64,000 nt of DNA from a virus, in IMG/VR virus record IMGVR_UViG_3300029235_000303; one strand, written 5' to 3'. The notes below the pieces were generated by a model that did not search any database, was not told the origin of the DNA, and worked only from the letters and a program-made list of their open reading frames with translations. This document shows positions 6,578 to 55,894 of this stretch, in pieces. The position numbers and the translations under genes are program-made. The stretch's first letter is position 1. The number at the start of each line of letters is the position of its first letter.

Positions 6578-6590
6578 GGAGATGGTATAG

Positions 6591-6860
6591 ATGTTAAATA
6601 TCAAATGGGATAACGGAGTTACAGGATATTTAAGCAAAAGCGAAAAAGAACTGTGTGAAAAGATTGATAGAGAAATCAGTGCTATCAATGCAGTAAGCAA
6701 AGCGGAAATATCTGTAGTAATCAGTATTGAAGGTGGCAATCAATTCCACATAAAGAAAGATACTGGTTCATTGATTGGATATATGAACGCAGAACAATGT
6801 TGGTATGCATTGAAGGGAATTATGACAAGTTTGTTATACATGGAAAGGCAGGTTGATTAG
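6591..6860 (+). CDS. hypothetical protein
   Basis: GGAGATGGTATAG then ATG. Confidence 0.4.
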   Translation: MLNIKWDNGVTGYLSKSEKELCEKIDREISAINAVSKAEISVVISIEGGNQFHIKKDTGSLIGYMNAEQCWYALKGIMTSLLYMERQVD

Positions 6861-8167: not shown

Positions 8168-8352
8168 AAATTGAAATTAAAACAGGCAATGCAGCATTTT
8201 GTGATCCATTTACAGGTGAACCAAGTGAATTTGATGAAGCTATAGAATGCAAAAGATTACTTGAAGGTATTTGTAGAGAACTTGAAGATGGTGTAACAAG
8301 CGGAAGCATCATTGACATAAACGGAAATAAAGTTGGTCAATGGAGCAGATAG
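8161..8352 (+). CDS. hypothetical protein
   Basis: Overlapping start; compact gene array. Confidence 0.35.
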   Translation: MLKIEIKTGNAAFCDPFTGEPSEFDEAIECKRLLEGICRELEDGVTSGSIIDINGNKVGQWSR

Positions 8353-8898: not shown

Positions 8899-8911
8899 TA
8901 CAGAGAATAAT

Positions 8912-8965: not shown

Positions 8966-9301
8966 ATGATTATATTGCAAAGAGATTCACGGTATGAGGT
9001 GGGTGATCCTGATTGTGTGTTTAAAGTAAAATCAGGTGACTTAATTACGCCTATAAAGCGAATTGGATATAAAACTACATTTGATGATTGGGAAGATTAC
9101 GGAGAAATCACGGATGAAGATATAAAAGATTTATATATTTTCTGTTGTCCTAACGATGAAATTCAAACAGAAGTTTATATTTCAATTTGTTCAAATTGGG
9201 ATTTAATTTTTGTTGGCAGATATAAAGGTATTTTCTTTGATAATACAGAGGCTATTACAGCAAAAATTAATGCATGGATTAACAACAATATGGAGGTGTG
9301 A
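8966..9301 (+). CDS. hypothetical protein
   Basis: GGAAGGAGTAAATGAA then ATG; the track ORF from 8888 spans the terminator. Confidence 0.45.
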   Translation: MIILQRDSRYEVGDPDCVFKVKSGDLITPIKRIGYKTTFDDWEDYGEITDEDIKDLYIFCCPNDEIQTEVYISICSNWDLIFVGRYKGIFFDNTEAITAKINAWINNNMEV

Positions 9302-25201: not shown

Positions 25202-25483
25202 TTGAGTAGATATAAGAACGGAAATCCAAAACATGCAAGTCGATTCATATGTTTAAAATGTATGCAAGAAAATATGTTAGCAAGAGGAATTCAGCGTAAG
25301 AAACAACGTGAGAAATTTCATATTAAAGATCTTACTTGTATATTATGCGGTGGAATTGAAACTAAAAATATGGAAGTAAGGTATTGTGATGATTATAAAG
25401 AGATTTATACAAAAGCATTAGAGAAAAGAGAGAATTATTATACAGGAGATTTTAGAAAGGTGGTTGATAATTATGTGTTATAA
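25202..25483 (+). CDS. zinc-finger protein
   Basis: TTG start after AATGAGGTG; CLKC...CILCG. Confidence 0.35.
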   Translation: MSRYKNGNPKHASRFICLKCMQENMLARGIQRKKQREKFHIKDLTCILCGGIETKNMEVRYCDDYKEIYTKALEKRENYYTGDFRKVVDNYVL

Positions 25484-26453
25484 AATAGAAGTCCAAAATA
25501 AAAATGCAGAGAAGCTTAACAGGAAGTTGGATGAGTTGAATCTTCCTATATATACGAGAAAATATTTCACTGTTAAAATTGAAAGCAAAGCAGGTGCATT
25601 AAATTATCTTGGAGTTATTGTAGATTTGCTCAATTGGTTTATTGAAGAGAAACTTATTAATAAAACAAATATTTCAGATATTGAGCCATCGGATTTTACA
25701 GATATCATGGCAGAAGATATTACATTATATTTAAAGACAAAAGAACAAAATGGAATGTCGCCAACTACATTAGAAACAAGGAAACATATTATAAGTAGCT
25801 TTTGGGATTATATGAGTAGAGTAAAGGGAACTGAAATTAAAGATGGATTCTTTAAAGATGTAACCTATAAGGGAATTCCATCTGGAAATAATTTAACAAA
25901 AAAACTTCCAACAGAAAAGCAGCTTAATGATATGGAAGAGAAAATAATGTGGAAAAAGGATGAATGTGTAAGAAATAGGAATATTGCTATCTTTCGAGTG
26001 TTAAGAGGAACTGGAATAAGAGAATCTGAACTTGCAGGTTTAGATTTGTCTAATTTGCATTTAAAAGAAGAAATGCCATACATTACTATTCTTGGCAAAG
26101 GTGTGTACAGAGAACTGCAAAATAGAACAGTATATCTTAGTGGATCTGCTTTAAAAGCATTAAGAGAATGGTTAGAATACAGAAGTACATTGAATAATGT
26201 TGTAGACAAAGAAGCTGTGTTTATAAATAAAAACGGTACACGTACAACAGAAAGAAATATTAAACAGATATTTGAAAATTATGGCAATGGCATCACTCCA
26301 CATATGATGCGACATTATTATGCCAGTATAATGAACAGAAATGGAAATCTTGCATTTGTACAGCAACAGCTTGGACATAGTAGTGTAAATACGACAGTTA
26401 ATAATTATGCAAACGGAGCAGTGGGAATGAAAGATATATTAGACAATATGTGA
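25473..26453 (+). CDS. tyrosine recombinase / phage integrase
   Basis: GGTGGTTGATAATT then ATG. ...LRGTGIRESELAGL... and ...HMMRHYYASIMNRNGNLAFVQQQLGHSSVNTTVNNYA are tyrosine-recombinase boxes (R, H-x-x-R, Y). Confidence 0.8.
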   Translation: MCYKIEVQNKNAEKLNRKLDELNLPIYTRKYFTVKIESKAGALNYLGVIVDLLNWFIEEKLINKTNISDIEPSDFTDIMAEDITLYLKTKEQNGMSPTTLETRKHIISSFWDYMSRVKGTEIKDGFFKDVTYKGIPSGNNLTKKLPTEKQLNDMEEKIMWKKDECVRNRNIAIFRVLRGTGIRESELAGLDLSNLHLKEEMPYITILGKGVYRELQNRTVYLSGSALKALREWLEYRSTLNNVVDKEAVFINKNGTRTTERNIKQIFENYGNGITPHMMRHYYASIMNRNGNLAFVQQQLGHSSVNTTVNNYANGAVGMKDILDNM

Positions 26454-28725: not shown

Positions 28726-30948
28726 ATGATTAATAAAGAGATGATGAGGATTATTAATAGTAATCCTGAGATGATGAAAATCATTAATGATTATTCAGAT
28801 GATGAAAACAAAAAATTAAAAAAATTATGTCACAAGATTTGGCGTGGGAAGATTGATATGTATGAATATGATGATTTATATGATGTCGCTATACAATGCT
28901 TAATGGAATCTGTGTATAGTTTTAATTCAGAGAAAGCAAATTTTGAAACATATTTAACAGGAAACATTAAAAGAAAATTTGATACATGGATGCGAGATAA
29001 TAGATTTCGACTAAAAAGAAATAATCTTGTCACGGATGAAAAAGGAAAAATAATTTATGACGAAAACGGCACTCCAACGATAATTAAAAATATCTCATTA
29101 GATGCACATACGGAAGATGATAATAACTTAATAGAGAAATTAGATTCAGGAATAAATATAGAAGATGAATGTAAATTTAATTTTGATTCTGATGAAAAAG
29201 TAGAAAAGTTTCTCAATTCATTATCTAAAATACAAAAAAATATCTTGCTTATGCGGATGGAGGATTTTCCTTCTGAGAAAATCAAAGAAGAATTAGGTAT
29301 TTCTAATGGAGAATATAACAGTGCAATGAAAGCAATAAAAATGAACAAAGGGCTTTCGATGTTCTCAATAAATAAAAATGATGGTGGTTATAATATGGAG
29401 GTAAATATGGAAGATAGAATTATTGAAATTAGCGAATCTGAAAATTACAGAATGGATAAATATAGTATGTACTCGTTGTTACAAGATAAAAAAAATGGGG
29501 ATATGAATTGCAACTATATCTTGCAGCGTGAACCGTTTCAATGGAGTAAGGAAGAAGCAAATAGATATTTCTGTCGTATTCTTAGCAATCTTCCAATTCC
29601 TGAAATTATACTTTGTGAACAGAAGAAAAAGGGATTAACTATATCACATTTGATTGATGGATTGCAGAGACTTTCATATGCAGAAGCTTTTAAGGAGAAT
29701 CGAATTAAGATTGGTTCGGCAGGAGCGGAAAGACACTTAATTCAGTATAGAGATTATGTTTTAGATGATAATGGAAATCGTGTGCCTGATGAAGAAGGAT
29801 TTCCTGAGTATGAAATGAAAGTTTTTGATGTTATTGGAAAATATTATAAAGATTTACCAGATGAGTTAAAGAAAAGATTTAATAATTTTAATATTAATGT
29901 AACAAAGTTTTTTGATTGTACTGACGAGCAGATTGCCGATCATATTCGTGATTACAATAATCATGCAAGTATGAATAAAGAACAGGGTGGATTACTCAAC
30001 GTATCAGCCGATATTGCTGGACATATTAAAAAGATTTCTCAAAAAAATTCATTTTTCAAAAACTGCGGTAAGTTTACAAATAATAATTCAATTAAAGGAA
30101 AACTTGAAAGAGTTGTTGTTGAATCAATTATGTTGTTATTCTTTCGTGAATCGTGGAGAGCGAGTTTAGATTCGATTTATAAATTCGTCAATGAAAATAC
30201 AACAGAACAGCAATTTTTAAAATTGAATTCACAGTTTAACAGATTGGAACTAGCATTAGGTGATAATAACAAAGATTTATCAAAGGAATTATTTACACCT
30301 ACAACAATGCCAATGTGGATTTCAGTGTTTGATAAATTTACTACATATAATATAGAAGATAGTCGTTTCGTAGATTTCTTAAATGCATATAACATAGAAC
30401 TCAAAGACAAAGAAATCAATGGTATATCAATGGCTGACTTTAAGGATCAACAGACCAAGAAAAAGACAACTATTGTAGGTAAGATTGATTTACTTATAAG
30501 GCTTATGAATGATTTTTTACATATTGATACAACTGAAACAGAGAATAATATAGAGTCTTCTGATAATAAGGTAACAAATGATAATGAATCTGAACAGAAT
30601 ACGGGTTGTGATGATGAAATATTATCATTTGTTAAAGAAAATGTTGCCGATGATATAGAGGATATTGATATAAAGGAATACCAGGATTTCGTGGATGTGT
30701 ATTTAGATATAAATAATCCATTATATATACAATGCAAGGCAGCATTAATGGCATTAACAGCATATGCTTACAGAACCGAAAAGGATGTTGAATTGGCGAC
30801 CTGGTTGGAAAATTATCAGAAGAATGCTACTGATAAGAATTATAGTCCATCACAAGATGTTAATTATAAGTATATTAAGATGGATTTTGATAATTACATA
30901 AACTTCTTAAATAATGTGAAGAAAGGAGGGATAATTAATGTTAATTAA
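28726..30948 (+). CDS. sigma-70-family-like N-terminal domain fused to DUF262/ParB-like (GmrSD N-terminal type) domain protein
   Basis: N-terminus ...FETYLTGNIKRKFDTWMRDNR... (sigma region 2 FxTY) and ...IQKNILLMRMEDFPSEKIKEELGISNGEYNSAMKAI (region 4 HTH). From about aa 250, ...ILQREPFQWSKEE...HLIDGLQRLS, the DUF262 DGQQR-type motif. Internal GGAGGTAAAT-ATG at 29410 is in frame. Confidence 0.5.
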   Translation: MINKEMMRIINSNPEMMKIINDYSDDENKKLKKLCHKIWRGKIDMYEYDDLYDVAIQCLMESVYSFNSEKANFETYLTGNIKRKFDTWMRDNRFRLKRNNLVTDEKGKIIYDENGTPTIIKNISLDAHTEDDNNLIEKLDSGINIEDECKFNFDSDEKVEKFLNSLSKIQKNILLMRMEDFPSEKIKEELGISNGEYNSAMKAIKMNKGLSMFSINKNDGGYNMEVNMEDRIIEISESENYRMDKYSMYSLLQDKKNGDMNCNYILQREPFQWSKEEANRYFCRILSNLPIPEIILCEQKKKGLTISHLIDGLQRLSYAEAFKENRIKIGSAGAERHLIQYRDYVLDDNGNRVPDEEGFPEYEMKVFDVIGKYYKDLPDELKKRFNNFNINVTKFFDCTDEQIADHIRDYNNHASMNKEQGGLLNVSADIAGHIKKISQKNSFFKNCGKFTNNNSIKGKLERVVVESIMLLFFRESWRASLDSIYKFVNENTTEQQFLKLNSQFNRLELALGDNNKDLSKELFTPTTMPMWISVFDKFTTYNIEDSRFVDFLNAYNIELKDKEINGISMADFKDQQTKKKTTIVGKIDLLIRLMNDFLHIDTTETENNIESSDNKVTNDNESEQNTGCDDEILSFVKENVADDIEDIDIKEYQDFVDVYLDINNPLYIQCKAALMALTAYAYRTEKDVELATWLENYQKNATDKNYSPSQDVNYKYIKMDFDNYINFLNNVKKGGIINVN

Positions 30949-38636: not shown

Positions 38637-39623
38637 TTGACAGAGAATAAAGAAAAAAATAATTATTGTGAGTTAAATGTATTAAGTTTATGCGATGGTA
38701 TGTCATGTGGACACATTGCATTAGAGAAAGCAGGATTTAATGTTGGTAAATATTTTGCATCAGAGATTAAGGACGTGGCAATTAAGGTAACAAGAGACAA
38801 CTATCCTGAAACAATTCACATTGGAGATGTGAACAAGATTACATATAAAGATGGTGTATTACATACAGAAGTCGGAGACTTTGAAACAGATATTGATATT
38901 GTAATGTTTGGTAGTCCTTGTCAGAGTTTTTCAAGAGCAATGATTAAAGAGAGAAAGATTGGTCTTGAAGATCCAGAACGTTCAGGTCTGTTTTATGAGT
39001 GCAATAGAGTATTGAAAGAAGTAAATCCAAAGTATTTCCTTATGGAAAATGTAGTGATGAAACCTGAAGATGAAGCCGTTATTAGTGAAATGATGGGAGT
39101 AAAACCTATCAGAATCAATTCTTCTCTTGTAGTAGGACAGCTTAGAGATAGATATTATTGGACTAATATTCCAGGAGTAACAGTTCCAGAAGATAAAGGA
39201 GTTACTTTACAAAGTGTACTCAATGATGGATATGTACCAAACGAGAAAGCAAAATGCCTTTGCAAGAATGATTCTCACGGATATTACAACGGCTGTTTTT
39301 GGACACCAATTAAGAGGTTTCACAGATTCTATTATAAGTCGTTTGGAACAATGGTGTTCCCATCGAAAGAGTATTTTGATAACTGTTTAGAGGTTACAAA
39401 GAGAATATTAGATGGAAGAAAATCTTCTGCAAAAATCTATGATGATTACAATGGTCATGATTTTGATGAAGCAAGATATTTATGGAAAGAAGAGAGAGCA
39501 AGATTGCAAGGAGTTCCAGAAGAATATGTAGAAAATATGACTGAAAAAGATGCGGCAGATGTTCTTGGTGATGGTTGGACTGTACCTGTAATCGCACACA
39601 TTTTCAGTTTTATGAAATTTTAA
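38637..39623 (+). CDS. DNA (cytosine-5)-methyltransferase
   Basis: Motif I LSLCDGMSCGHIAL, motif IV GSPCQSFS (PCQ), motif VI LMENVV. TTG start after AAAGGA. Confidence 0.8.
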   Translation: MTENKEKNNYCELNVLSLCDGMSCGHIALEKAGFNVGKYFASEIKDVAIKVTRDNYPETIHIGDVNKITYKDGVLHTEVGDFETDIDIVMFGSPCQSFSRAMIKERKIGLEDPERSGLFYECNRVLKEVNPKYFLMENVVMKPEDEAVISEMMGVKPIRINSSLVVGQLRDRYYWTNIPGVTVPEDKGVTLQSVLNDGYVPNEKAKCLCKNDSHGYYNGCFWTPIKRFHRFYYKSFGTMVFPSKEYFDNCLEVTKRILDGRKSSAKIYDDYNGHDFDEARYLWKEERARLQGVPEEYVENMTEKDAADVLGDGWTVPVIAHIFSFMKF

Positions 39624-39721
39624 CAGAGAATAACAGAATATGAAGTTCGTAGGAAAGCGGAATTTCTTCTGAGTTCAGAGAACAAATACATATAAAAATA
39701 AAGAAAAAGAGGATTAAATAT

Positions 39722-40027
39722 ATGAGTAAAGCTGTTTTAGTGTTAGATATGCCTGGAACTTGTTGTGATTGTAATTTTTGTAGAGAAATACAAGAAGGTA
39801 TCGAAGCATGTTGTGAATTAATGGATGAGCCAAATGATAATACTCTTTGTAGAATGGTTGATAGTAAAAATGGATATTGTCAAGAAAAACCAAATTGGTG
39901 TCCATTAAAAGAATTACCAGAAGAGACTCACAATGATGAATATATGGATGAATATTGTGATGGCTATGATAATGGTTGGAACTCATTAAGAAAGGAAATT
40001 TTAGGCGAAGATGAGGAGAATAAGTAG
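39722..40027 (+). CDS. Cys-rich small protein
   Basis: GAGGATTAAATAT then ATG; multiple CxxC. Confidence 0.4.
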   Translation: MSKAVLVLDMPGTCCDCNFCREIQEGIEACCELMDEPNDNTLCRMVDSKNGYCQEKPNWCPLKELPEETHNDEYMDEYCDGYDNGWNSLRKEILGEDEENK

Positions 40028-40375
40028 ATGACAGTTGGTGTAAAAATATATGAAGCAAAAGATACAATTAAGAAATACGAAAACCTTGGGTATAGATTTG
40101 TTGGTGAAGAAAATGTGGGTGAAGGATACCTAAAGCTCATATTCAGAGATCCTATTATTCAAAAAGAGAATTTAATTAAAATACCAAATGTTTCATCTAC
40201 TGTTACAGGTACGATTCCAAGAGTATTTCTTTTTAAAACTGATTTACCATTTGACGATGCCGAGAAAATAGGTGAATGGATTTATAAAAGTATTAAGAAA
40301 GGTGTGCTTGTTATTCCAGAATGTGTTGAATTTATAGGTGTAGAAGATTTGTATAAGACAGAAAGGATAGAATAA
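40028..40375 (+). CDS. hypothetical protein
   Basis: Start overlaps the previous stop. Confidence 0.4.
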   Translation: MTVGVKIYEAKDTIKKYENLGYRFVGEENVGEGYLKLIFRDPIIQKENLIKIPNVSSTVTGTIPRVFLFKTDLPFDDAEKIGEWIYKSIKKGVLVIPECVEFIGVEDLYKTERIE

Positions 40376-40573
40376 ATGAATAAAGAAAAACAAATTGAGG
40401 TATTAGAAGACCTGAAATCTTATGTAAATGAAAATTGGGATGAGTATGAATATGCAGATGATATAAACGATGCCAATGTAGCACTAGATGCAGCAATAAC
40501 TTTACTCAAATCGTCTAAAGTTGCAGGTACATTAACCATAAATAATAAAAGTTATATAGTTCTTGAAGGGTAA
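40376..40573 (+). CDS. hypothetical protein
   Basis: ATG overlapping the stop. Confidence 0.4.
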   Translation: MNKEKQIEVLEDLKSYVNENWDEYEYADDINDANVALDAAITLLKSSKVAGTLTINNKSYIVLEG

Positions 40574-40620
40574 GAATCATAGATTTCTTTTGGAGAATAT
40601 ATTAGCAGGAGGTGATGCGA

Positions 40621-41303
40621 TGAGCAAGATATACGATTATGAAGAATATCAAAATCAACGAGTAAAAGTTACATATACTGATAAAAGAAAATACAGAGAA
40701 GAAAACATTGTTGGTCTATATGGACAAGTTATTAAGACTACAAGTGGATCAATAGCGGTTCAGATTGATGGAATGTATAATGCAGCAAGCTCCAATGGAT
40801 TATATTGGTTTAAAAGAAGTGAATTGGATATTATTAGAGATGAAAGTGAGGATAATAAAATGACAGGATTTAATAAAGTGGCGATTGTAAATTTGGTAGA
40901 TGATTACAATAAGAAGGATTATGGATTTGCTTTATATGATGAAGATATGAATGAAATTGTTAAGTACGATACAAACCATCCGTTATATGTGATTGTAAAT
41001 GCAAGAGGAAAAGATAATAGAGTCCTTGGAATTTTAAAAGAAGTAAAGTCAGTAGAAGCATATGGCAAGTGCGTAACGGCACAGATCGTTGGAGTTGTTA
41101 ATATGAATGCGTATAATGCAAGAATTGATAAGGAAAATTATCAGAAAGAAATCGCAAAGCAGAAAGCTTCTATTGAGAAGGAGTTAAAGTCTGAGATTGA
41201 AAAGATGAATAATATTGCTTTATATGAAAAGATGGCAAAGGAGCATCCTGAAAATCCAAGACTCACTGAACTTGTTAATGCACTAAAAGAGTTAGGAGAA
41301 TAA
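40621..41303 (+). CDS. hypothetical protein
   Basis: GATTTCTTTTGG, then AGCAGGAGGTGATGCG, then ATG at 40621. Confidence 0.45.
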
Positions 41304-41304
41304 T

Positions 41305-41565
41305 ATGGCAGGATTTATATCAAAACAGCCAAATGGATTATATTGTAGATTTTCGAGTGTCACGGATTGTCCTACGGCATGGAACATGACACGAGAAGAT
41401 TATATCAATATGAAAATGCAGGAAGCAAAAGAAGATGCTGAAGATGTGTTGGATAATTATTTGAAGCCGTTTGATATGGTGGTAGATATGTATTATCCAA
41501 ACAATATGACAAAAGAGGAATTTGATGAATTTCTTGAAGAGACTGGATATAACAAAGGAGAATAA
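41305..41565 (+). CDS. hypothetical protein
   Basis: GGAGAATAAT then ATG. Confidence 0.4.
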   Translation: MAGFISKQPNGLYCRFSSVTDCPTAWNMTREDYINMKMQEAKEDAEDVLDNYLKPFDMVVDMYYPNNMTKEEFDEFLEETGYNKGE

Positions 41566-41570
41566 TCTAT

Positions 41571-41720
41571 ATGAAGAACTGTGTAATTTTAGAAATGGAA
41601 AATAGTAATGATTTTGAGAATGCTATGAATGATTATTTGGATGATGGATATAAAGTAGAATCCAGCTCATGTAATAGTAGATACTATAAAGCAATTCTTG
41701 TGTTAAAGGAGGATGAATAA
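41571..41720 (+). CDS. small hypothetical protein (49 aa)
   Basis: GGAGAATAATCTAT then ATG. Confidence 0.3.
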   Translation: MKNCVILEMENSNDFENAMNDYLDDGYKVESSSCNSRYYKAILVLKEDE

Positions 41721-41725
41721 AACAT

Positions 41726-42085
41726 ATGAAGAAGAAAATTTTATATAGTTTGGCTTTGCTATTAGCATTTATGTTTATATTAACTGGCTGTGCAAAATGC
41801 ATTAGTACCGAAACATCTACAGTTCAAGTAAAAATAATAGATGAATATCACAGGGCTGCTTATACAACAATGTATTATAGTCCTGCGACTAAAACAATGA
41901 TGCCACAATCGCATCCAGCAGTTTATAGAATCACTGTTGAATATAACGGTGTAGAATATAATATTTCTGGTAGTAATACATATAACAAATATTCAGACAA
42001 AATTGGAGAATATGTTGATGGAATATTAGAAACCAAGAAATATGACGATGGTACTGTTAGGTACAATATTGTTGACTTACCATAG
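41726..42085 (+). CDS. lipoprotein
   Basis: AAAGGAGGATGAATAAAACAT then ATG. Signal peptide with lipobox LTGC. Confidence 0.55.
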   Translation: MKKKILYSLALLLAFMFILTGCAKCISTETSTVQVKIIDEYHRAAYTTMYYSPATKTMMPQSHPAVYRITVEYNGVEYNISGSNTYNKYSDKIGEYVDGILETKKYDDGTVRYNIVDLP

Positions 42086-42417
42086 TAAATAAATGATATT
42101 ACAAAAGACATAGTAAACCGAAGTTTCTTTGGAGTTAGGAGGTAGAAATAGCAAATTTAAATTTAGAAGATTTTAGTGAAGAATACAGAAAAACAGCACC
42201 AATGGAATGTTCTTTGTATTTAGTTTCTTGTTTAGATAAAGATACACAAACGCAGTTAAAGAAAGATTGGAATGAAGCTGGTGGTGTTAAAGTAATTCCA
42301 TATTGGAAATGGTGTATGGAACATATTGATGTAATCTATCACAAATAAGAGAATAATACATTGAAAGGAGCGAGAGATTTGCTGCAGCATTAAATCTGGA
42401 TTTGCTCTGAGTAAGAA

Positions 42418-43293
42418 ATGTTAGAGATTAACAAAATATACAATGAAGATTGCCTTGAAGGTATGAAAAAGATTGATGATAAATCGGTCGATTTCATCTT
42501 CACAGATCCACCTTATAATACGACTAATAATTCTTGGGAATGTGAAATGCCGTTAAATGATTATGTCGAGTTATCAGGACAATATTTCTATGAAACAGAT
42601 CTATTTAATTTGGCTCAAGTAACAAATAGTAGTCTTGAGTATACAAGAGATTGGTTTTATGAGAACAAAAAAGATGGTTTATGGACTCATTACAATCGAA
42701 TTATCAAAGATAATGGTTGCATTGCATTATGGGCGCAATCACCATTTGATAAGAGGCTCGCTTGTAGTAATGAAAAGCTATATCGCTATGAATGGATTAT
42801 CGAAAAGACCAAAGCAACTGGTCATCTAAATGCAAAGAAAATGCCTATGAAGGCACACGAAAATGTCTTGATTTTCTATAAGAAACTCCCTACATATAAT
42901 CCACAAATGACAGAAGGACATACGCCTGTTCATTCTTATACAAAGCATACGACAGATGGTAACTGTTATGGTGCTACAAAGACTGGTATTTCAGGTGGTG
43001 GCAGTACACAAAGATATCCAAGAGATGTTCTGCAGTTCAAGTGGGATACTCAGAAAAGTAGCTTACATCAGTGCCAAAAGCTTGTTGAAGCGTGTGAGTA
43101 TTTTATTAAGACATATACCAATCAAGGAGATTTAGTTCTTGATTCATGTGCAGGAAGTTGTACAACTGCAATTGCAGCTTTAAATACAGGTAGAAATTAC
43201 ATATGTTTTGAGAAAGATAAGGATATTTTTGAGGTTGGAAGTAAGAGAGTAGCTGAATATGCTAATCAAGATTTGTTGATGAGTGCTACATAA
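42418..43293 (+). CDS. DNA methyltransferase, N6-adenine/N4-cytosine (beta class, DPPY)
   Basis: N-terminal ...IYNEDCLEGMKKIDDKSVDFIFTDPPY... and C-terminal ...GDLVLDSCAGSCTTAIAA... (FxGxG SAM motif) in beta-class order. Confidence 0.8.
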   Translation: MLEINKIYNEDCLEGMKKIDDKSVDFIFTDPPYNTTNNSWECEMPLNDYVELSGQYFYETDLFNLAQVTNSSLEYTRDWFYENKKDGLWTHYNRIIKDNGCIALWAQSPFDKRLACSNEKLYRYEWIIEKTKATGHLNAKKMPMKAHENVLIFYKKLPTYNPQMTEGHTPVHSYTKHTTDGNCYGATKTGISGGGSTQRYPRDVLQFKWDTQKSSLHQCQKLVEACEYFIKTYTNQGDLVLDSCAGSCTTAIAALNTGRNYICFEKDKDIFEVGSKRVAEYANQDLLMSAT

Positions 43294-43336
43294 GAAGCAA
43301 TAAAGAAATCTTTCATGTGAAGATTGGAGGTAAACA

Positions 43337-43552
43337 ATGGGTAAAATTAGTAAACAGACATTTATTGTAGAAGTTGCAACTGATAAAGATTCTTTTGAAG
43401 ATTGGTTAGCAGAGAAGTGTTCAGAAATTTATAATATGGCAATTGATGATTTTATGGAAGCTATTGACGAAGAGGATAGAGACGAATGCTTAGTTGATGA
43501 TATGAAAAGAATCGAAGAATTAGCAGAAAAGGTTAAAGGAAGTAGAGAATAA
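43337..43552 (+). CDS. hypothetical acidic protein
   Basis: TTGGAGGTAAACA then ATG. Confidence 0.4.
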   Translation: MGKISKQTFIVEVATDKDSFEDWLAEKCSEIYNMAIDDFMEAIDEEDRDECLVDDMKRIEELAEKVKGSRE

Positions 43553-43616
43553 TTAACTAAATAATACGAAAGGAGTGAGTGGCAGCCTTAAAGATATATC
43601 GCTCTGAGTAGATTAA

Positions 43617-44348
43617 ATGGTATATCAAGGAAGTAAAAACAGGTTGGCAAAATTTTTAGTGCCGATTATTCAGAAGTATATTGATGATAATAATATTAAA
43701 ACTTACATAGAGCCTATGTGTGGTGGAGCTAATCTTATTGATAAGATTAAATGTGATAATAGAATTGGAGCAGATATTAACGAAGAGTTGATTGCTTTGT
43801 TGAAATATGCTCAGATAGACAACGGTTTATCTATTGCACCTGAAGTATGTACATTTGAACATTATGCAGAGGTTAGAGAGGACAGAAAACTTGGAACTCA
43901 TAAGTATTCGCCAGAATATATTGCATTGATTGGATATATGGCAAGCTATGGTGGCAGATACTTTGATGGTGGTTATGGTAGAGATTCAAAGGGTGGCAGG
44001 AGTATTTATAATGAGAGATTAAATAATTTCAAGGAACAAGCACCGAATTTGAATGATATTGAATTTATGTGCTGTGATTATAAGAATTTCTCAGATTATA
44101 AAAACTGTGTATTTTATTTTGATCCACCTTACAAAGATACAAAACAGTATTCTAAACAGTCAATTGACTACGATTCTTTTTACGATTTTCTTCGTAAACT
44201 TTCAGAGAACAATATAGTGTTGGTAAGTGAATATAATATGCCTAATGATTTTAAGTGTATTTGGCAGAAAGAGCGTAAAGTGTTGCAGAAGTCAGATAGA
44301 GTAACAGGCGAAAAAGCAGTAGAAAAGTTGTTTGAAATAAGAGAATAA
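43617..44348 (+). CDS. Dam-family (D12 class) N6-adenine DNA methyltransferase
   Basis: ...YQGSKNRLAKFLVPII... (compare the Dam KWAGGK region), ...EPMCGGANL..., ...FYFDPPYKDT. Confidence 0.7.
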   Translation: MVYQGSKNRLAKFLVPIIQKYIDDNNIKTYIEPMCGGANLIDKIKCDNRIGADINEELIALLKYAQIDNGLSIAPEVCTFEHYAEVREDRKLGTHKYSPEYIALIGYMASYGGRYFDGGYGRDSKGGRSIYNERLNNFKEQAPNLNDIEFMCCDYKNFSDYKNCVFYFDPPYKDTKQYSKQSIDYDSFYDFLRKLSENNIVLVSEYNMPNDFKCIWQKERKVLQKSDRVTGEKAVEKLFEIRE

Positions 44349-44367
44349 ATATCTGGGAGGTGACAAT

Positions 44368-44757
44368 TTGATAGAACCACAGTTTTGTGTTGTAGAGGAA
44401 TTAATATCTATGGAATATATGGACAGAAGTGTTTTAATCCTATATCCATATGAACTTAGCAATGAACCAATATTAAAAGACAATATTCCAAAAATGACAA
44501 AAGTGATAAGAGAATATATAAAAGAGTCTGAAATGTATAGCAAGTGTGTAGATACAATTCCAAATCTTATATGGGATTCTCAAAAAATATCTATGCAAAA
44601 TGAAGCTGATGAACATCAAAGAAAAGCTGATGAACTTGCAAAAATAATGAATGAAGGTATCAGCCCTTATGCATGGTATGTCAAAGGTAGGTTTAATGGA
44701 GAGATAGGTGGGTTTCATTATAATGTAGATAATATAGTTTATTTGGATAGAAACTAA
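44368..44757 (+). CDS. hypothetical protein
   Basis: TGGGAGGTGACAA then TTG. Confidence 0.35.
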   Translation: MIEPQFCVVEELISMEYMDRSVLILYPYELSNEPILKDNIPKMTKVIREYIKESEMYSKCVDTIPNLIWDSQKISMQNEADEHQRKADELAKIMNEGISPYAWYVKGRFNGEIGGFHYNVDNIVYLDRN

Positions 44758-44901
44758 CAAGAAATTTTGGTTTCATGGTTTGTCACGAAAACCATACAAT
44801 ATTCGAGACAAAAAGAGAATATAACAATGTAATTACAAGTTAAGGAAAGGAAAAAAGTTCACATGTGAGTAAAGCTGCGCAGCTACTATTGGTGAACAAA
44901 T

Positions 44902-45738
44902 TTGAAAAATACATATATTAAATCGCCTCTAAATTATGTCGGAGGCAAGTATAAGTTACTACCAATCATTGTACCAATGTTCCCAGATAAGATAAATACT
45001 TTTGTGGATTTATTTGGTGGAGGTTTTAATGTTGGTATTAATGTAAATGCCGATCATATTATCTATAATGATATATGCAAACAGGTAGTTGGTTTTCTAA
45101 AATATTTACAAGGTTCAAATATTGAAGAAGTGCTACAGAAAATTGATTCATATATTGATAAGTATGAATTAACGAAAGAAAACAAAGAAGGATATTTACT
45201 GTTTAGAGAAGAATACAACATAGGTATCAAAGATCCAATTAAATTCTATACGCTTTTATGTTATGCGTTCAATAATCAAATCAGATTCAATTCCAAAGGT
45301 GAATATAATATGCCTTTTGGCAAAGATAGATCAAGTTTTAATCCCACTCTTAGACAAAAATTTATAGATTTTCACAAGCGACTAAATGAAATAGATTGTA
45401 GTTTCTTAAATATTCCATTTGAGAGATTTGATTTTTCTGATTTTATGGAAGGTGATTTTGTTTATGCAGATCCACCATATTTTAATTCTGTTGCTACATA
45501 CAATGAAAATGGTGGTTGGACAGAAGAAATGGAGAATAAATTACTAGAGACTCTTGATACTTTGAATGATAAAGGCGTTAAGTTTGCATTAAGTAATAAT
45601 CTCAAATATGATAATCCATTACTTGATAAATGGAAAGATAAATACATAGTTCATTATTTAAAACATGATTATAGCAACTGCAATTATCAGAAAAAGGACA
45701 AGAGTGCCGATTGCGAGGTATTAATCACAAATTATTAA
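44902..45738 (+). CDS. Dam-family (D12 class) N6-adenine DNA methyltransferase, second copy
   Basis: ...SPLNYVGGKYKLLPII..., ...DLFGGGFNVG..., ...VYADPPYFNS. TTG start. Confidence 0.7.
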   Translation: MKNTYIKSPLNYVGGKYKLLPIIVPMFPDKINTFVDLFGGGFNVGINVNADHIIYNDICKQVVGFLKYLQGSNIEEVLQKIDSYIDKYELTKENKEGYLLFREEYNIGIKDPIKFYTLLCYAFNNQIRFNSKGEYNMPFGKDRSSFNPTLRQKFIDFHKRLNEIDCSFLNIPFERFDFSDFMEGDFVYADPPYFNSVATYNENGGWTEEMENKLLETLDTLNDKGVKFALSNNLKYDNPLLDKWKDKYIVHYLKHDYSNCNYQKKDKSADCEVLITNY

Positions 45739-53960: not shown

Positions 53961-54533
53961 ATGGAGAAGTTTTATATTGTAACAAATGAGAAATTCCTCA
54001 AAGAGATTGATGATTATAGAAAACATGGCGAAGAGAGAAGAATAGTAACAAATAATTTTTTCGAGGATAAAGGTATTGCTGGGAATGAATATTATATCGG
54101 TGGAGATGGATTTGTAAATCGTCCATTTAAAGAATATGAAAAGCATAATATTAGATTATATATTACCGATTGCAATGAAAATAATCAGAAATTTGGTAAA
54201 GAGTTACTGAAACCAAATAAATTATTCAACGATTCTGATGTGTTAATGAGGAAATTTAGAGCTAACAGTAAGACTTTAAAAGAGTTTCAAGACTTATGTA
54301 TTGAAAATAATATTGTTATTAACAATCATCCCATTCGAGTAGGAGACTATTTCAAGGAATTGCATTTAGGTGGGTATTCAGTTTCAAGGTTTGAGTATGA
54401 GAATAAGTTATATTTAAATATTTCTACAACAAAATATGAAACTATTACACCAGACGATGATACAGGTTTTACAGAAATTAAAGGTAGTGAATTTTATAAA
54501 GTGCTTGAAGAATTTGAATCGAAGAATGAGTAA
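53961..54533 (+). CDS. hypothetical protein
   Basis: AATGGAGGTAAAACA then ATG at 53961. Confidence 0.4.
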   Translation: MEKFYIVTNEKFLKEIDDYRKHGEERRIVTNNFFEDKGIAGNEYYIGGDGFVNRPFKEYEKHNIRLYITDCNENNQKFGKELLKPNKLFNDSDVLMRKFRANSKTLKEFQDLCIENNIVINNHPIRVGDYFKELHLGGYSVSRFEYENKLYLNISTTKYETITPDDDTGFTEIKGSEFYKVLEEFESKNE

Positions 54534-54560
54534 ATATCGGTTTCCTTGGGAGGTAAAATA

Positions 54561-54986
54561 ATGGAGATTTTAGGAAATAAATTAAAAAGATTTTTTGACA
54601 TTGTAGATAATCCACCAAATGATGCTGAAATTACATATGCTGGAAATAGATATGAGGTATGGGAAATATCTGGAAACCTATTTAATAAGATGTGTGATAT
54701 GTCAGAAGATGAATTTGTTAAATTAGCAGGCGAAGATGCATGGTGGAGACAGTGTGATGGTAGTGTACTTGGAGTACCTGATACAAAATTCATTATTAGT
54801 GGTGAAGAAATGGTAGGTTGGAATACAAGAGGAGAATATGAAAATTTTCAGTATGCTAAATTGACTGATTATCTGTGCTATGGAATTGGAGCATCGCAAC
54901 CTAAAAATGTATGTGCTTGTTGTGTGGATCTTGCAAAATACAATGATATGACAATGGCAGAATTATTTGAAAAGTATGGAGAATAA
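54561..54986 (+). CDS. hypothetical protein
   Basis: GGTTTCCTTGGG, then AGGTAAAATA, then ATG. Confidence 0.4.
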   Translation: MEILGNKLKRFFDIVDNPPNDAEITYAGNRYEVWEISGNLFNKMCDMSEDEFVKLAGEDAWWRQCDGSVLGVPDTKFIISGEEMVGWNTRGEYENFQYAKLTDYLCYGIGASQPKNVCACCVDLAKYNDMTMAELFEKYGE

Positions 54987-55060
54987 CCTATTAGGGAGGT
55001 GCATGACATATCGAAAAATATCTAAGTATCAAAGATGCGTCAAATTACTTAGTTGAAGAA

Positions 55061-55243
55061 ATGAAGAAGCATGACGAGTCTTATGGTGGTGAAGTAAAAG
55101 ATGTTGAGCTTGACAAAGAGCAAGCAGATAAACAGACATTAGGATGGATAAAATTGGCTTTATCTAATTCTGGTTATCCAAGTAGAGAATGTAAAGAAAG
55201 ATTAAAAAGAATATATGAAGGAGTTAAACACGATGGAGAATAA
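55061..55243 (+). CDS. hypothetical protein
   Basis: ATG at 55061; short basic/acidic protein. Confidence 0.35.
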   Translation: MKKHDESYGGEVKDVELDKEQADKQTLGWIKLALSNSGYPSRECKERLKRIYEGVKHDGE

Positions 55244-55490
55244 CAAAGTAAGACAGTTTATAGATTTACTTATCAATGAGGAAGTGACAATCGAAAATGC
55301 AGTTAAGACATCGGGTGTTGGCAATATGAAATTAGTTGATGTTTTAAAGTCTATTTCAGAGATGGAGTTTGAAAGTATTAAAGCCTTTTCAAGTGCTGTT
55401 TCTGGTATGAATAGTATGAAGGAAGCCATTCAGACGGTCAAGGATCTGGATGATGCGTTAGTAGAGCTAAAGAAATCTTCTGAAAAGTAG
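55233..55490 (+). CDS. hypothetical protein
   Basis: GAAGGAGTTAAACACG then ATG at 55233. Confidence 0.4.
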   Translation: MENNKVRQFIDLLINEEVTIENAVKTSGVGNMKLVDVLKSISEMEFESIKAFSSAVSGMNSMKEAIQTVKDLDDALVELKKSSEK

Positions 55491-55731
55491 AGAATATAAA
55501 AACAGCAGAACAGATTGTACAAGTTTGGCGACCTAACAATCTGCTCTACAGAGAATAAAATATAGGATAAACTATATTTGTTCTATTGTAACAAATCTAT
55601 TTGGCTAATTCAAGCCAGTTTATCCTATAACAAGTATTCCAAAAGAGAAATCAATTGGATAGTGGGCGTGGGTTTCGTCTATTGAACTTAAACTTCAAGA
55701 ATACCAAGTAAATTACAAATACATATTTGAG
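55491..55731 (+). ncRNA. structured leader / candidate guide-scaffold (tracrRNA- or omega-RNA-like) upstream of repeat array
   Basis: No ORF. Nested stems: AGCAGAACAGATTG...CAATCTGCTCT; 13-bp TATAGGATAAACT / AGTTTATCCTATA enclosing ATTTGTT-ctattgt-AACAAAT and TGGC...GCCA; a GC-rich GGGCGTGGGTTTCG patch. AGTTTATCCTATAA is partly complementary to the repeat 3' end TTATAAGGTAATAAAC. Confidence 0.3.
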
Positions 55732-55894
55732 GTTTTAGAACCATGTTAATTTATAAGGTAATAAACCTATGCTATTGAACGATATTAAGTCTGATAGTTT
55801 TAGAACCATGTTAATTTATAAGGTAATAAACCAGGCTTGCATGGTTGGCTTAATATAAAAGGATTTTAGAATGATGTTAATTTAAGGAGAACTC
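55732..55894 (+). CRISPR. mini CRISPR-like array (2 perfect + 1 degenerate 36-nt repeats, spacers 29 and 28 nt)
   Basis: R1 55732-55767 and R2 55797-55832 are both GTTTTAGAACCATGTTAATTTATAAGGTAATAAACC. S1 55768-55796, S2 55833-55860. Degenerate R3 55861-55894 GGATTTTAGAATGATGTTAATTTAAGGAGAACTC runs into the ATG of the TnpB-like gene. Confidence 0.6.

What the first reader, a model, noticed from the sequence alone, without database searches (positions are those of the whole stretch)
55491..55731. Highly structured 240-nt non-coding leader with an anti-repeat-like segment upstream of the array
The intergenic region between the 55233-55490 gene and repeat 1 has no ORF. It contains nested inverted repeats: a 13-bp stem TATAGGATAAACT/AGTTTATCCTATA enclosing a 7-bp hairpin and a TGGC/GCCA stem; an upstream 11-bp imperfect hairpin; and a GC-rich patch unusual for this AT-rich genome. 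One arm (ATAGGATAAAC) resembles the repeat 3' portion. The other arm (GTTTATCCTATAA) could therefore pair with crRNA repeats, as a tracrRNA anti-repeat would. Alternatively it is an omega-RNA-like scaffold.
Basis: seen in the sequence. Interest (0 to 1): 0.6.

Follow-up and report, generated by a model that had tools for sequence, protein, structure and literature searches.

The report
Omega-RNA-derived leader of phage mini-CRISPR
The non-coding stretch ahead of a tiny phage CRISPR array is a conserved, structured RNA scaffold descended from the guide RNA of a transposon nuclease (TnpB). It most likely pairs with the repeats so that the neighbouring 432-aa TnpB-like protein can attack rival phages.

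Summary
The 13-bp perfect hairpin at 55561-73/55617-29 is matched by only 1 of 1000 shuffles. However, the arm proposed as an anti-repeat is not one. Its fit to the repeat is at chance level, and sister phages with near-identical repeats carry unrelated hairpins at that spot.

The functional unit lies 3' of that hairpin, at 55630-55731. This core is conserved in all 15 distinct variants examined that sit upstream of mini-arrays next to TnpB-family genes (63-100% aa identity). Its helices show compensatory changes, including G.U pairs that are valid only on the + strand. One segment (55702-55715) pairs with repeat nt 16-29 and co-varies with it, so this is the real anti-repeat.

The core is homologous to the 3' coding end of tnpB genes, which is where omega RNAs begin. 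It is therefore an omega-RNA-derived, tracrRNA-like scaffold fused in cis to repeat 1, the arrangement described for transposon-CRISPR intermediates (TranC) and Cas12f.

Three spacers match other phage contigs perfectly, and the shared flank is on the 5' side. Unexpectedly, the leader ends in ATTTGAG|GTTT, the type II-A leader-repeat junction motif, and the 36-nt repeats are type II-A-like. Transcription, processing and cleavage remain inferred.

The parts
55490..55496 (+). First copy of the GAGAATA gene-junction motif, overlapping the stop codon of the upstream gene.
   Evidence: The motif occurs 68 times on the + strand and 0 times on the - strand of the window. Its role (RBS-like or promoter-like) is not established.
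55507..55547 (.). Hairpin 1: 12-bp stem with one mismatch, AGAACAGATTGT/ACAATCTGCTCT.
   Evidence: (I5). It is present only in the closest relatives. The mismatch is A.C on the + strand and G.U on the - strand, and the U-tract is on the - strand. Function unexplained; it is not part of the conserved scaffold.
55551..55557 (+). Second GAGAATA motif, with a sigma-70-like -10 (TAAAAT, ending at 55561). Candidate promoter region for the scaffold and array.
   Evidence: A motif of this kind precedes the 5' hairpin or the core in L004, L007, L010 and L008. Promoter function is inferred only.
55561..55629 (+). 5' hairpin: 13-bp perfect stem 55561-73/55617-29 enclosing two small hairpins.
   Evidence: 1 of 1000 shuffles. 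A hairpin of unrelated sequence occupies the same position in L004, L007/L015, L010-L014 (with a C-G to U-A compensatory change), L124, L129, L151 and the L017 family. It is absent in L008. It is an accessory 5' stem, not an anti-repeat.
55630..55700 (+). Conserved scaffold core: stem A UCCAA/UUGGA (55638-42/55655-59), stem B UGGGCG/CGUCUA with loop UGGGUUU (55663-68/55676-81), and hairpin C UUGAA/UUCAA (55682-86/55694-98).
   Evidence: Alignments A2 and A4 with pair counts: 92-93% of cells paired against 34-51% in slid controls; stem A has 4 of 5 pairs with changes on both sides. Covariance model R1 scores 91 bits here. The core is homologous to tnpB 3' ends.
55702..55715 (+). Anti-repeat UACCAAGUAAAUUA, which pairs with repeat nt 16-29 (R1 55747-60 in cis; R2 55812-25 in trans).
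   Evidence: (I8, I9) and the MFE folds of most of 13 variants (not L010). In one search, helix 4 has 5 of 13 pairs with changes on both sides. Examples: UACC:GGUA (window), UAUC:GAUA (L127), ACUA:UAGU (L010), ACUAUAU:AUAUGGU (L008), UACCC:GGGUA (L151). The duplex energy alone is unremarkable (-10.6 kcal/mol, 9% of random tiles).
55716..55731 (+). Hairpin D (CAAAU-ACAU-AUUUG) and the leader end ATTTGAG (55725-31), which abuts GTTT of repeat 1.
   Evidence: helix 6: G.U to A-U changes that work only on the + strand. ATTTGAG/GTTT is the conserved Group 1 type II-A leader-repeat junction (PMC5382924).
55732..55894 (+). Mini-array: R1 55732-67, S1 55768-96, R2 55797-832, S2 55833-62, and a degenerate R3 from 55863 that carries the RBS AAGGAG.
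   Evidence: S1 has 29/29 matches in the viral contigs L135 and L136. The repeat is 24/36 identical to the S. pyogenes type II-A repeat, reached by 0 of 20000 shuffles.
55895..57193 (+). 432-aa TnpB-family effector gene.
   Evidence: NCBIfam guided_TnpB 8e-55; Pfam OrfB_IS605 plus Cas12f1-like_TNB. A profile of the family hits ISDra2 TnpB at 8e-9 and Cas12f structures. Foldseek top hits are Cas12f and TnpB, from a low-confidence model. D212, E351 and D392 are invariant, and G304 replaces the canonical RuvC-II Glu.
57097..57180 (+). Vestigial homologue of the scaffold core inside the 3' coding end of the effector gene, at the canonical omega-RNA position.
   Evidence: R1 hit of 35.9 bits, E = 3e-4; alignment A5. 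No complete omega RNA follows, because the next gene starts at 57242.

Best explanation
The 3' 100 nt of the 'leader' (55630-55731), preceded by an accessory 5' hairpin (55561-55629), encode a + strand structured RNA. This RNA is the relocated 5' portion of a TnpB omega RNA (reRNA), and it works as a tracrRNA-like scaffold for the adjacent mini-CRISPR array and the 432-aa TnpB-family effector.

Proposed mechanism:
1. One transcript starts near the GAGAATA/TAAAAT element and runs through scaffold, array and effector gene.
2. The scaffold folds into stem A, the G+C-rich stem B and hairpin C.
3. Its 3' segment (55702-15) base-pairs with the 3' half of a repeat, leaving the repeat tail AAUAAACC and the following spacer as the guide.
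4. For repeat 1 this pairing is intramolecular, so scaffold + R1 + S1 form a natural single-guide RNA. For repeat 2 a scaffold copy must pair in trans.
5. The RNP recognises a 5' flanking motif (CCAAA in the L010 sister clade; GTAGA next to the window's S1 target). It cuts DNA of competing phages with a RuvC site that uses a relocated glutamate.
6. The leader end ATTTGAG|GTTT and the 36-nt type II-A-like repeats suggest that new spacers are inserted at the leader-proximal repeat by a host type II-A adaptation module.

Shown by computation: conservation, covariation, strand, homology to tnpB 3' ends, spacer targets, catalytic-residue conservation.
Inferred: the transcript and its ends, processing, RNP formation, cleavage, and the route of spacer acquisition.
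For: 1. Conservation. Only 55618/55630-55731 is retained across the clade down to 63-70% protein identity.
2. Covariation. On 14 distinct sequences, 92% of cells pair against 34-50% in slid controls. Ten pairs have changes on both sides, against 1-4 in slid controls. None of 500 shuffles reaches the observed values. Adding more distant scaffolds gives stem A three different sequences, all paired.
3. Strand. Frequent G.U pairs (stem B, hairpin D, anti-repeat) would be C.A on the - strand.
4. The anti-repeat co-varies with the repeat.
5. Homology to omega-RNA territory. Model R1 hits the 3' end of the tnpB ORF in about 50 array-less relatives and in the window's own gene, and the sequences align. 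Canonical relatives end their downstream RNA in ...ATAACC, like the repeat end ...ATAAACC.
6. L081 is a natural deletion formed by recombination between the leader core and the gene's 3' end.
7. The effector is TnpB family, with D212/E351/D392 invariant and Gly at the canonical Glu position. This is the rearranged RuvC-II type that PMC10691335 predicts to be active.
8. Targets. Three spacers match other IMG/VR phage contigs over their full length; two independent ones share the 5' flank CCAAA, and the 3' flanks are not conserved.
9. Spacer turnover is polar: the distal spacer is shared and the proximal ones differ (L001 vs L016; L011/L014/L027).
10. Split omega RNA acting as tracrRNA + crRNA is the published TranC model.
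Against: - No expression data exist. Promoter, 5' end and processing sites are unknown, and the promoter scan gives only consensus-level hits.
- The anti-repeat:repeat duplex is AT-rich and thermodynamically unremarkable (-10.6 kcal/mol; 9% of random tiles match it). Unconstrained RNAduplex picks other registers in some variants.
- The sequences are related, and the structure was partly derived from them, which inflates paired-cell counts.
- Part of the core's conservation could be inherited from its origin as coding DNA.
- The AF2 model is poor (pLDDT 62.5), so the geometry of the relocated Glu was not checked here.
- The window's own TAM rests on a single protospacer.
- If a type II-A module acquired the spacers, a 3' PAM would be expected, and none is seen.
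Confidence: 0.72

Rival explanations
1. The region is only a CRISPR leader in the DNA sense: a promoter plus an integration signal for spacer acquisition. It sits on top of a decaying fragment of a former tnpB 3' end, and no scaffold RNA function exists.
For: The core is demonstrably a copy of a tnpB 3' coding end. The last 7 nt are the type II-A leader-anchoring motif ATTTGAG. Spacer turnover is polar.
Against: The reading frame is destroyed, yet the helices are kept through compensatory and wobble changes. The anti-repeat changes together with the repeat. According to PMC5382924, type II-A leaders are poorly conserved upstream of their last ~10 nt, whereas here about 100 nt are conserved.
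Confidence: 0.12
2. One reading: the 3' arm of the 13-bp stem (GTTTATCCTATAA, 55618-30) is the anti-repeat that pairs with crRNA repeats.
For: Gapped complementarity to the repeat's 3' portion (-6.4 kcal/mol). The L010 clade and L093 keep a similar GGATAAA/TTTATCC hairpin.
Against: The complementarity is at chance level: 64% of random tiles do as well. The arm is sequestered in a perfect 13-bp stem. L004, L007, L015, L110, L114, L116 and L127 have unrelated hairpin sequences with essentially the same repeat, and L008 has no hairpin.
Confidence: 0.03
3. The hairpins at 55507-47 and 55561-629 are transcription terminators or insulators (or 5' stabilising stem-loops) between the upstream operon and the CRISPR unit. 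They would not be part of the guide-RNA machinery.
For: Their position right after the upstream stop codon. Motif + hairpin + T-tract units occur elsewhere in the window, e.g. at 8903 and 20235. L129 has a classical terminator just upstream of its scaffold. The hairpin's sequence is free to vary and the hairpin is dispensable in L008.
Against: Neither hairpin is followed by a U-tract on the + strand; the scan finds only a weak inner site at 55601-18. The U-tracts lie on the - strand, where the window has no genes. This rival concerns only the 5' third of the region and is compatible with the main explanation.
Confidence: 0.3
4. The scaffold is a type II tracrRNA, or the array is a type II-A array, serving a host Cas9. 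The TnpB-like gene would then be an unrelated neighbouring insertion.
For: Type II-A-like repeats (24-28/36 identical), the ATTTGAG junction, 36-nt repeats with 29-32-nt spacers, and a terminal repeat that keeps only its 5' 22 nt.
Against: No Rfam tracrRNA hit and no other Rfam hit. The anti-repeat lies at the 3' end of the scaffold and pairs with the 3' half of the repeat, not the 5' half. No cas9, cas1, cas2 or csn2 was found among the window's larger ORFs. The scaffold is homologous to tnpB 3' ends. Scaffold, array and tnpB stay linked from 63% to 100% identity. The conserved protospacer flank is 5', not 3'.
Confidence: 0.04

Closest known systems
TranC (transposon-CRISPR intermediate) systems: TnpB-derived effectors whose reRNA is functionally split into tracrRNA + crRNA (Jin et al., Cell 2025, as summarised in PMC13565253, PMC13639567 and bioRxiv 10.64898/2026.03.27.714800). 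This includes the phage-borne CauTranC9.
   Same: A TnpB-sized effector (432 aa) without Cas12 domain accretion, next to a short array with no cas1/2/4. The scaffold is visibly derived from the omega/reRNA and pairs with the repeat. The system is phage-encoded and its spacers target other phages (for CauTranC9; here).
   Different: Membership of a named TranC clade could not be tested because the sequences are not held. Here the scaffold lies upstream of the array and is fused to repeat 1, and the array lies upstream of the gene. The preprint looked for tracrRNAs between effector and array and found none for several clades, clade 9 among them. The repeats and the leader-repeat junction are type II-A-like. 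The effector has the rearranged RuvC-II glutamate and no zinc finger.
Cas12f (type V-F) tracrRNA:crRNA or sgRNA
   Same: A miniature TnpB-like effector. The tracrRNA's 3' anti-repeat pairs with the 3' part of a ~36-nt repeat, with the guide 3' of the repeat and a 5' PAM. Cas12f structures are the top fold and profile matches.
   Different: NCBIfam Cas12f2 scores 35.8 bits against a cut-off of 450, so the protein is not a member by that model. The protein is closer to bona fide TnpBs (guided_TnpB 186.6 bits). No sequence similarity of the scaffold to any Rfam family.
TnpB omega RNA / reRNA of IS200/IS605 elements (e.g. ISDra2)
   Same: The scaffold core is homologous to the segment that overlaps the tnpB 3' end in array-less relatives of the same protein family. 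The tail before the guide ends in ...ATAA(A)CC, and the guide follows the scaffold 3' end.
   Different: It is not at the 3' end of the gene but upstream of it. It is no longer coding. A repeat:anti-repeat helix and a spacer array are inserted before the 3' tail. The guides are exchangeable spacers that match foreign phages, not transposon-flanking DNA.
Type II-A CRISPR leader-repeat junction, Group 1 (ATTTGAG/GTTT; Van Orden et al. 2017, PMC5382924)
   Same: An exact ATTTGAG|GTTT junction. The repeat is 36 nt, starts GTTT, has AAAC near its 3' end and a terminal C. Spacers are about 30 nt, and spacer turnover is leader-proximal.
   Different: No cas9-cas1-cas2-csn2 next to it. The rest of the leader is an RNA scaffold of TnpB origin. 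The protospacer flanks point to a 5' motif rather than a 3' PAM.

Membership tests
TnpB omega RNA (reRNA) | Sequence and structure homologous to the RNA that overlaps the 3' end of tnpB in the same protein family. | tested here: met
   Model R1, built from leader cores, hits the tnpB 3' end in about 50 loci (E from 3e-6 to 0.7) and window 57097-57180. Alignment A5.
TnpB omega RNA (reRNA) | Encoded at or downstream of the 3' end of its tnpB gene, ending at the transposon right end, with the flanking DNA serving as guide. | tested here: not met
   The scaffold lies 164 nt upstream of the gene start and is followed by repeats and exchangeable spacers. Only 48 nt of intergenic DNA follow the gene.
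TnpB omega RNA (reRNA) | Part of a mobile IS200/IS605 or IS607 element (TnpA, LE/RE ends, multiple copies). | not tested
   There is one locus per phage contig at a syntenic place. Small ORFs were not screened for TnpA, and element ends were not sought.
tracrRNA of type V-F / TranC systems | A non-coding RNA gene next to the array and effector that carries an anti-repeat complementary to the repeat. | tested here: met
   55702-15 pairs with repeat nt 16-29. The pairing is kept by compensatory changes in L127, L010, L008, L093, L124 and L151.
tracrRNA of type V-F / TranC systems | Expressed as an RNA that forms a duplex with crRNA and is bound and required by the effector. | not testable with these tools
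   No transcriptome or biochemical data. Here the scaffold is contiguous with repeat 1, so it may never exist as a separate transcript.
TranC / type V effector | TnpB/Cas12 RuvC nuclease fold with catalytic D-E-D. | tested here: inconclusive
   Family membership is clear. D212 and D392 are canonical. The canonical Glu is replaced by the invariant G304, and E351 is an invariant alternative. This matches the rearranged RuvC-II groups predicted active in PMC10691335.
TranC / type V effector | Spacers match foreign DNA next to a 5' PAM/TAM. | tested here: met
   29/29, 31/31 and 29/29 matches in other IMG/VR contigs. The 5' flanks are GTAGA, CCAAA and CCAAA; the 3' flanks are unrelated. This rests on only three protospacers.
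Type II-A CRISPR array and leader | Leader 3' end ATTTGAG abutting a 36-nt repeat of the form GTTT...AAAC(C). | tested here: met
   55725-31 ATTTGAG | 55732 GTTTTAG...ATAAACC. Motif definition from PMC5382924. Repeat identity to S. pyogenes and S. thermophilus CRISPR3 repeats is 24-28/36, reached by 0 of 20000 shuffles.
Type II-A CRISPR array and leader | Adjacent cas9, cas1, cas2 and csn2, and a tracrRNA with a 5' anti-repeat to the repeat's 5' half. | tested here: not met
   No such Pfam domains in the 20 other largest ORFs of the window. No Rfam tracrRNA. The rest of the ~180-kb phage and the host genome could not be searched.
Rho-independent terminator (for the two 5' hairpins) | G+C-rich stem followed by a U-tract on the transcribed (+) strand. 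| tested here: not met
   The scan finds only the weak inner site 55601-18. Both large stems are followed by A-rich sequence on the + strand.

The most novel reading that the evidence does not exclude
A phage-borne hybrid CRISPR unit. An omega-RNA-derived scaffold doubles as the array leader and ends in the type II-A leader-anchoring motif. The host's type II-A Cas1-Cas2-Csn2 machinery therefore inserts each new spacer directly behind the scaffold-fused first repeat. The newest spacer is then automatically built into a natural single-guide RNA for a TnpB-like nuclease with a relocated catalytic glutamate. Under this reading, a transposon nuclease became an adaptive anti-phage weapon by capturing or mimicking a foreign CRISPR type's array rather than by duplicating its own omega RNA. 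The same array could in principle also feed the host Cas9.
Probability: 0.25. Interest if true: 0.8.

Novelty: new variant of a known kind. Interest (0 to 1): 0.6.

Why it matters
The locus shows, in one set of natural sequences, intermediate steps between a transposon guide RNA and a CRISPR tracrRNA/crRNA pair:
- array-less relatives with the scaffold at the gene's 3' end;
- relatives with a scaffold plus a single guide upstream of the gene;
- split forms with 1-4 spacers;
- a deletion derivative formed by recombination between the two scaffold copies.

It also locates the tracrRNA-like element upstream of the array, fused to repeat 1. This is a place not examined in a recent screen that failed to find tracrRNAs for several TnpB-derived CRISPR clades. 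That makes a 432-aa, phage-encoded, zinc-finger-less nuclease with a rearranged active site directly testable as a programmable enzyme.

The type II-A-type leader-repeat junction gives a concrete, testable answer to how such minimal systems, which lack adaptation genes, renew their spacers.

Tried and rejected
- **Rfam.** An E-value-mode scan of 54500-58000 gave only three chance-level snoRNA/sRNA matches.
- **phmmer against PDB.** The single protein gave nothing; a family profile was needed.
- **megablast/blastn against INPHARED phages.** Only weak gene-internal matches. All 27 distinct spacers submitted, concatenated, found nothing there.
- **RNAalifold's long-range 'stem C'** (AAACUUCAAG with UUUGAGGUUUU across the leader-repeat junction). 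Rejected because the changes in L007/L015 and L002/L008 break it without compensation. The local hairpin UUGAA/UUCAA is the homologue of the long hairpin found in the L017 family and in canonical loci.
- **Minus-strand transcript.** It folds better overall (z = -4.3), and both 5' hairpins have U-tracts on that strand. The conserved core's G.U pairs nevertheless fix the core on the + strand.
- **L129 as a clean 'unsplit ancestor'.** Revised: L129 has a scaffold + array upstream as well, and its post-gene copy looks like a secondary fusion.
- **Type II 3' PAM.** Not seen in three protospacers.
- **Window spacer S2, L005 S1 and L008 S1.** No targets in IMG/VR.
- **AlphaFold2 with a shallow alignment.** Low-confidence model, used only for a coarse fold match.
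- **Papers.** The TranC paper and the preprint's sequence tables are not held, so clade assignment was impossible.
Full report
**1. What is at the coordinates**

The stretch 55491-55731 lies between a 91-aa ORF (55215-55490) and a mini-array. The array is:
- R1 55732-67 and R2 55797-832, two identical 36-nt repeats (GTTTTAGAACCATGTTAATTTATAAGGTAATAAACC);
- S1 55768-96 (29 nt) and S2 55833-62 (30 nt);
- a third repeat from 55863 that keeps only its first ~22 nt and runs into the RBS (AAGGAG) and the ATG (55895) of a 432-aa ORF.

The 13-bp perfect stem is non-random: 1 of 1000 shuffles reaches 13 bp. There is no ORF of 50 aa or more, and no Rfam family matches.

**2. The neighbouring gene**

- The 432-aa protein is a TnpB-family RNA-guided nuclease: NCBIfam guided_TnpB at 8e-55, plus Pfam OrfB_IS605 and Cas12f1-like_TNB.
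- A profile built from 25 relatives matches the ISDra2 TnpB structures (8e-9) and several Cas12f structures.
- A low-confidence AF2 model (pLDDT 62.5) has Cas12f and TnpB as its best Foldseek matches.
- Across 25 sequences down to 40% identity, D212 (IDLGVDN), E351 (NESYTS) and D392 (NADVNG) are invariant. The canonical RuvC-II glutamate position holds an invariant glycine (G304), and the zinc-finger cysteines are absent.
- This is the 'rearranged RuvC-II' configuration (Glu replaced by Gly, with an alternative Glu) that PMC10691335 describes for large TnpB branches, some of them virus-specific, and predicts to be active. That paper also notes branches that lost the zinc finger.

**3. Comparative data**

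- IMG/VR holds 306 relatives of the protein, and the best 79 loci were fetched. Pattern scans added viral, metagenomic and one genomic locus (Eubacterium segne BX4).
- The window is identical to parts of 95-183-kb phage contigs.
- Every relative with 63% or more protein identity has a 1-4-spacer array immediately upstream of the gene.
- Only the 3' ~100 nt of the leader (55630-55731) are conserved throughout.
- The 13-bp hairpin is not conserved in sequence. L004, L007/L015, L110, L114, L116 and L127 have essentially the window's repeat but carry GTAGAATGT/ACATTCTAC or GTGGAATAT/ATATTCCAC hairpins there. The L010 clade has ACAGGATAAA/TTTATCCTGT, with a compensated C-G to U-A variant. L124, L129, L151 and the L017 family have other hairpins, and L008 has none.
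- The hairpin is therefore a position-conserved, sequence-free and dispensable 5' stem. The arm proposed as an anti-repeat pairs with the repeat no better than 64% of random window tiles do.

**4. Structure of the conserved core**

On 14 distinct sequences (alignment A2) I tested this model:
- stem A: 55638-42/55655-59
- stem B: 55663-68/55676-81, with the invariant loop UGGGUUU
- hairpin C: 55682-86/55694-98
- anti-repeat 55702-15 paired to repeat nt 16-29
- hairpin D: 55716-20/55725-29

Results:
- 92% of cells form standard pairs, against 34-50% when the partners are slid by 1-3 columns.
- Ten pairs show changes on both sides, against 1-4 in the slid controls.
- None of 500 shuffles reaches the observed values.
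- With more distant scaffolds added (A4), stem A appears as UCCAA/UUGGA, UCUUG/CAAGA, UUCUG/CAGAA and, in L151, UCUAA/UUAGA.
- Many pairs are G.U or switch between G.U and A-U or G-C. This is compatible only with a + strand RNA.
- The anti-repeat helix changes together with the repeat: UACC:GGUA (window), UAUC:GAUA (L127), ACUA:UAGU (L010), ACUAUAUAGAUUAC:GUAAUUUUAUAUGGU (L008), UACUAU:AUGGUA (L093), UCCUC:GGGGA (L124), UACCC:GGGUA (L151).

Caveats: the sequences are related, the structure was partly read from them, and the duplex energy itself is ordinary for this AT-rich DNA.

**5. Origin of the scaffold**

- A covariance model of stems A to C (R1) finds the leader at 91 bits. It also hits, at E from 3e-6 to 0.7, one site in each of about 50 array-less TnpB loci, always overlapping the last ~70 nt of the tnpB ORF. 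It hits window 57097-57180 inside the 432-aa gene as well.
- The alignment shows the leader core is a frame-broken copy of the DNA encoding ...KVFPxAFxxGIEGxGLHP..., i.e. the segment where TnpB omega RNAs start.
- In those canonical loci a long hairpin and a tail ending ...ATAACC follow the stop codon. The repeats here end ...ATAAACC, and those of the L017 family end ...ATATAACC.
- Relative to the canonical RNA, the window's version has an extra helix inserted before the tail. Its 5' strand is the anti-repeat and its 3' strand is the repeat. The array is threaded through the loop of this helix.
- Intermediate forms exist. L133, L107 and L119 have a scaffold, one guide and a terminal repeat upstream of the gene; L104 has five repeats.
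- L081 has lost the array and the gene by recombination between the leader core and its homologue at the gene's 3' end.

This is the 'functional RNA splitting' route described for TranC systems.

**6. What the guides do**

- 29 distinct spacers occur in about 20 arrays.
- Closely related phages share the leader-distal spacer and differ in the proximal one: L001 has S1 + S2 and L016 has S2 only; L011, L014 and L027 share their distal spacer.
- The window's S1 matches two other IMG/VR contigs 29/29, inside a 163-aa ORF.
- A spacer of the L010 clade matches 13 contigs 31/31, and another matches one contig 29/29.
- The 5' flanks are GTAGA, CCAAA and CCAAA. The 3' flanks (TGG, TGT, AAG) share nothing. 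This fits repeat-to-spacer guides with a 5' TAM/PAM, as in TnpB and Cas12.
- The repeat's own end (AAACC) differs from these flanks, which would spare the array itself.
- No spacer matches the window or its relatives outside the arrays.

**7. An unexpected feature**

- The last 7 nt of the leader are ATTTGAG, abutting GTTT. This is exactly the Group 1 type II-A leader-repeat junction (87 of 167 loci). PMC5382924 reports that, together with the first repeat, it is essential and sufficient for spacer integration.
- The repeats are 36 nt, start GTTT, end AAACC, and are 24-28/36 identical to the S. pyogenes and S. thermophilus CRISPR3 repeats. None of 20000 shuffles reaches this.
- No cas1, cas2, cas9 or csn2 domain is found in the window's 20 other largest ORFs. 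Those ORFs encode an integrase, four DNA methyltransferases, an HTH protein and others, which suggests a temperate phage.
- A host type II-A adaptation module acting in trans is an attractive explanation for the polar spacer turnover, but it is untested. The missing 3' PAM argues for caution.

**8. Verdict**

The specific anti-repeat assignment is wrong. The alternative reading ('omega-RNA-like scaffold') is right, and a genuine anti-repeat exists about 85 nt further 3'.

The element belongs functionally with TranC/Cas12f-type tracrRNAs. It fails the positional definition of an omega RNA, and it could not be assigned to a named TranC clade.

It differs from what I could find described in three ways:
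- the scaffold serves as the array leader and is fused in cis to repeat 1;
- the array lies upstream of the effector, whereas PMC10691335 reports arrays almost always downstream;
- the repeat and leader end are type II-A-like.

Transcription, processing, RNP formation and cleavage are all inferred.

Noticed in passing
whole window, e.g. 55490, 55551, 57230, 57908: The heptamer GAGAATA occurs 68 times on the + strand and never on the - strand, at almost every gene junction. Many copies are GGAGAATA 5-9 nt before an ATG (RBS-like). AGAGAATA copies sit 10-20 nt upstream of a separate GGAGG, and some are followed by terminator-like hairpins. It may be a phage promoter or gene-junction signal.
   Followed up: partly
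window 57097-57180: The effector gene's own 3' end still matches the scaffold covariance model (35.9 bits). It is the canonical omega-RNA position, but only 48 nt separate the stop codon from the next gene, so no complete omega RNA follows.
   Followed up: yes
L081:3143-3260 (IMGVR_UViG_3300045988_119919): In a sister phage the leader scaffold runs straight into the last ~60 nt of the effector gene. Array and gene were deleted by recombination between the two homologous scaffold copies.
   Followed up: partly
window 55507-55547: Hairpin 1 has an A.C mismatch on the + strand that is a G.U pair on the - strand, and it is followed by UUUUUAUAUU on the - strand. It looks like a - strand terminator, although every ORF of 220 aa or more in the window is on the + strand. 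It is present only in the closest relatives. Unexplained.
   Followed up: partly
L129 (OGDN01006010.1), reverse strand 6470-6790 and 8200-8335: This relative (56% identity) has a scaffold + array (different 36-nt repeat, GATTGACAGGCCTGCAGAATTACAAGGTTATAAACA) upstream of the gene. It also has a second scaffold right after the gene, in which the anti-repeat is fused directly to a repeat-3'-like tail followed by unique sequence: a possible fixed-guide RNA.
   Followed up: partly
L017 family (L103-L108, L118, L119, L125, L126, L133): A second array-bearing clade (57-58% identity) with unrelated ~36-40-nt repeats ending GAATATAACC. The loop of its long hairpin C (GUGCGAA) is complementary to a downstream UUCGCA, and both change together in L103 (GUGUGAA/UUCACA), suggesting a pseudoknot. 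With about 404 aa and five repeats in L104, it might correspond to the published phage 'TranC clade 9', but this could not be checked.
   Followed up: no
spacers of all arrays: 28 of 29 distinct spacers begin with T or C. The repeat/spacer boundary, or an acquisition or processing preference, may be offset by one base.
   Followed up: no
window 25464-26453, 38637-45738, 28726-30948: The window encodes a tyrosine integrase, four DNA methyltransferases (C5, N4/N6, two Dam-like) and a 740-aa protein with GmrSD_N and weak sigma-70 region 2 matches. This is a temperate, heavily anti-restriction-equipped phage of about 180 kb. A 96%-identical copy of the effector gene lies on a 340-kb Eubacterium segne contig.
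   Followed up: partly
L151:1990-4455 (NCBI GCA_037193525.1): In this relative the gene after the effector is an 821-aa DNA methylase interrupted by an intein (Hint_2/Intein_splicing).
   Followed up: no
L136 reverse strand, around 9195-9224: Spacer 2 of L005 matches, at 25/30, a second site in the same target phage contig that carries the window's S1 protospacer. It may be an escape variant or a chance hit.
   Followed up: partly
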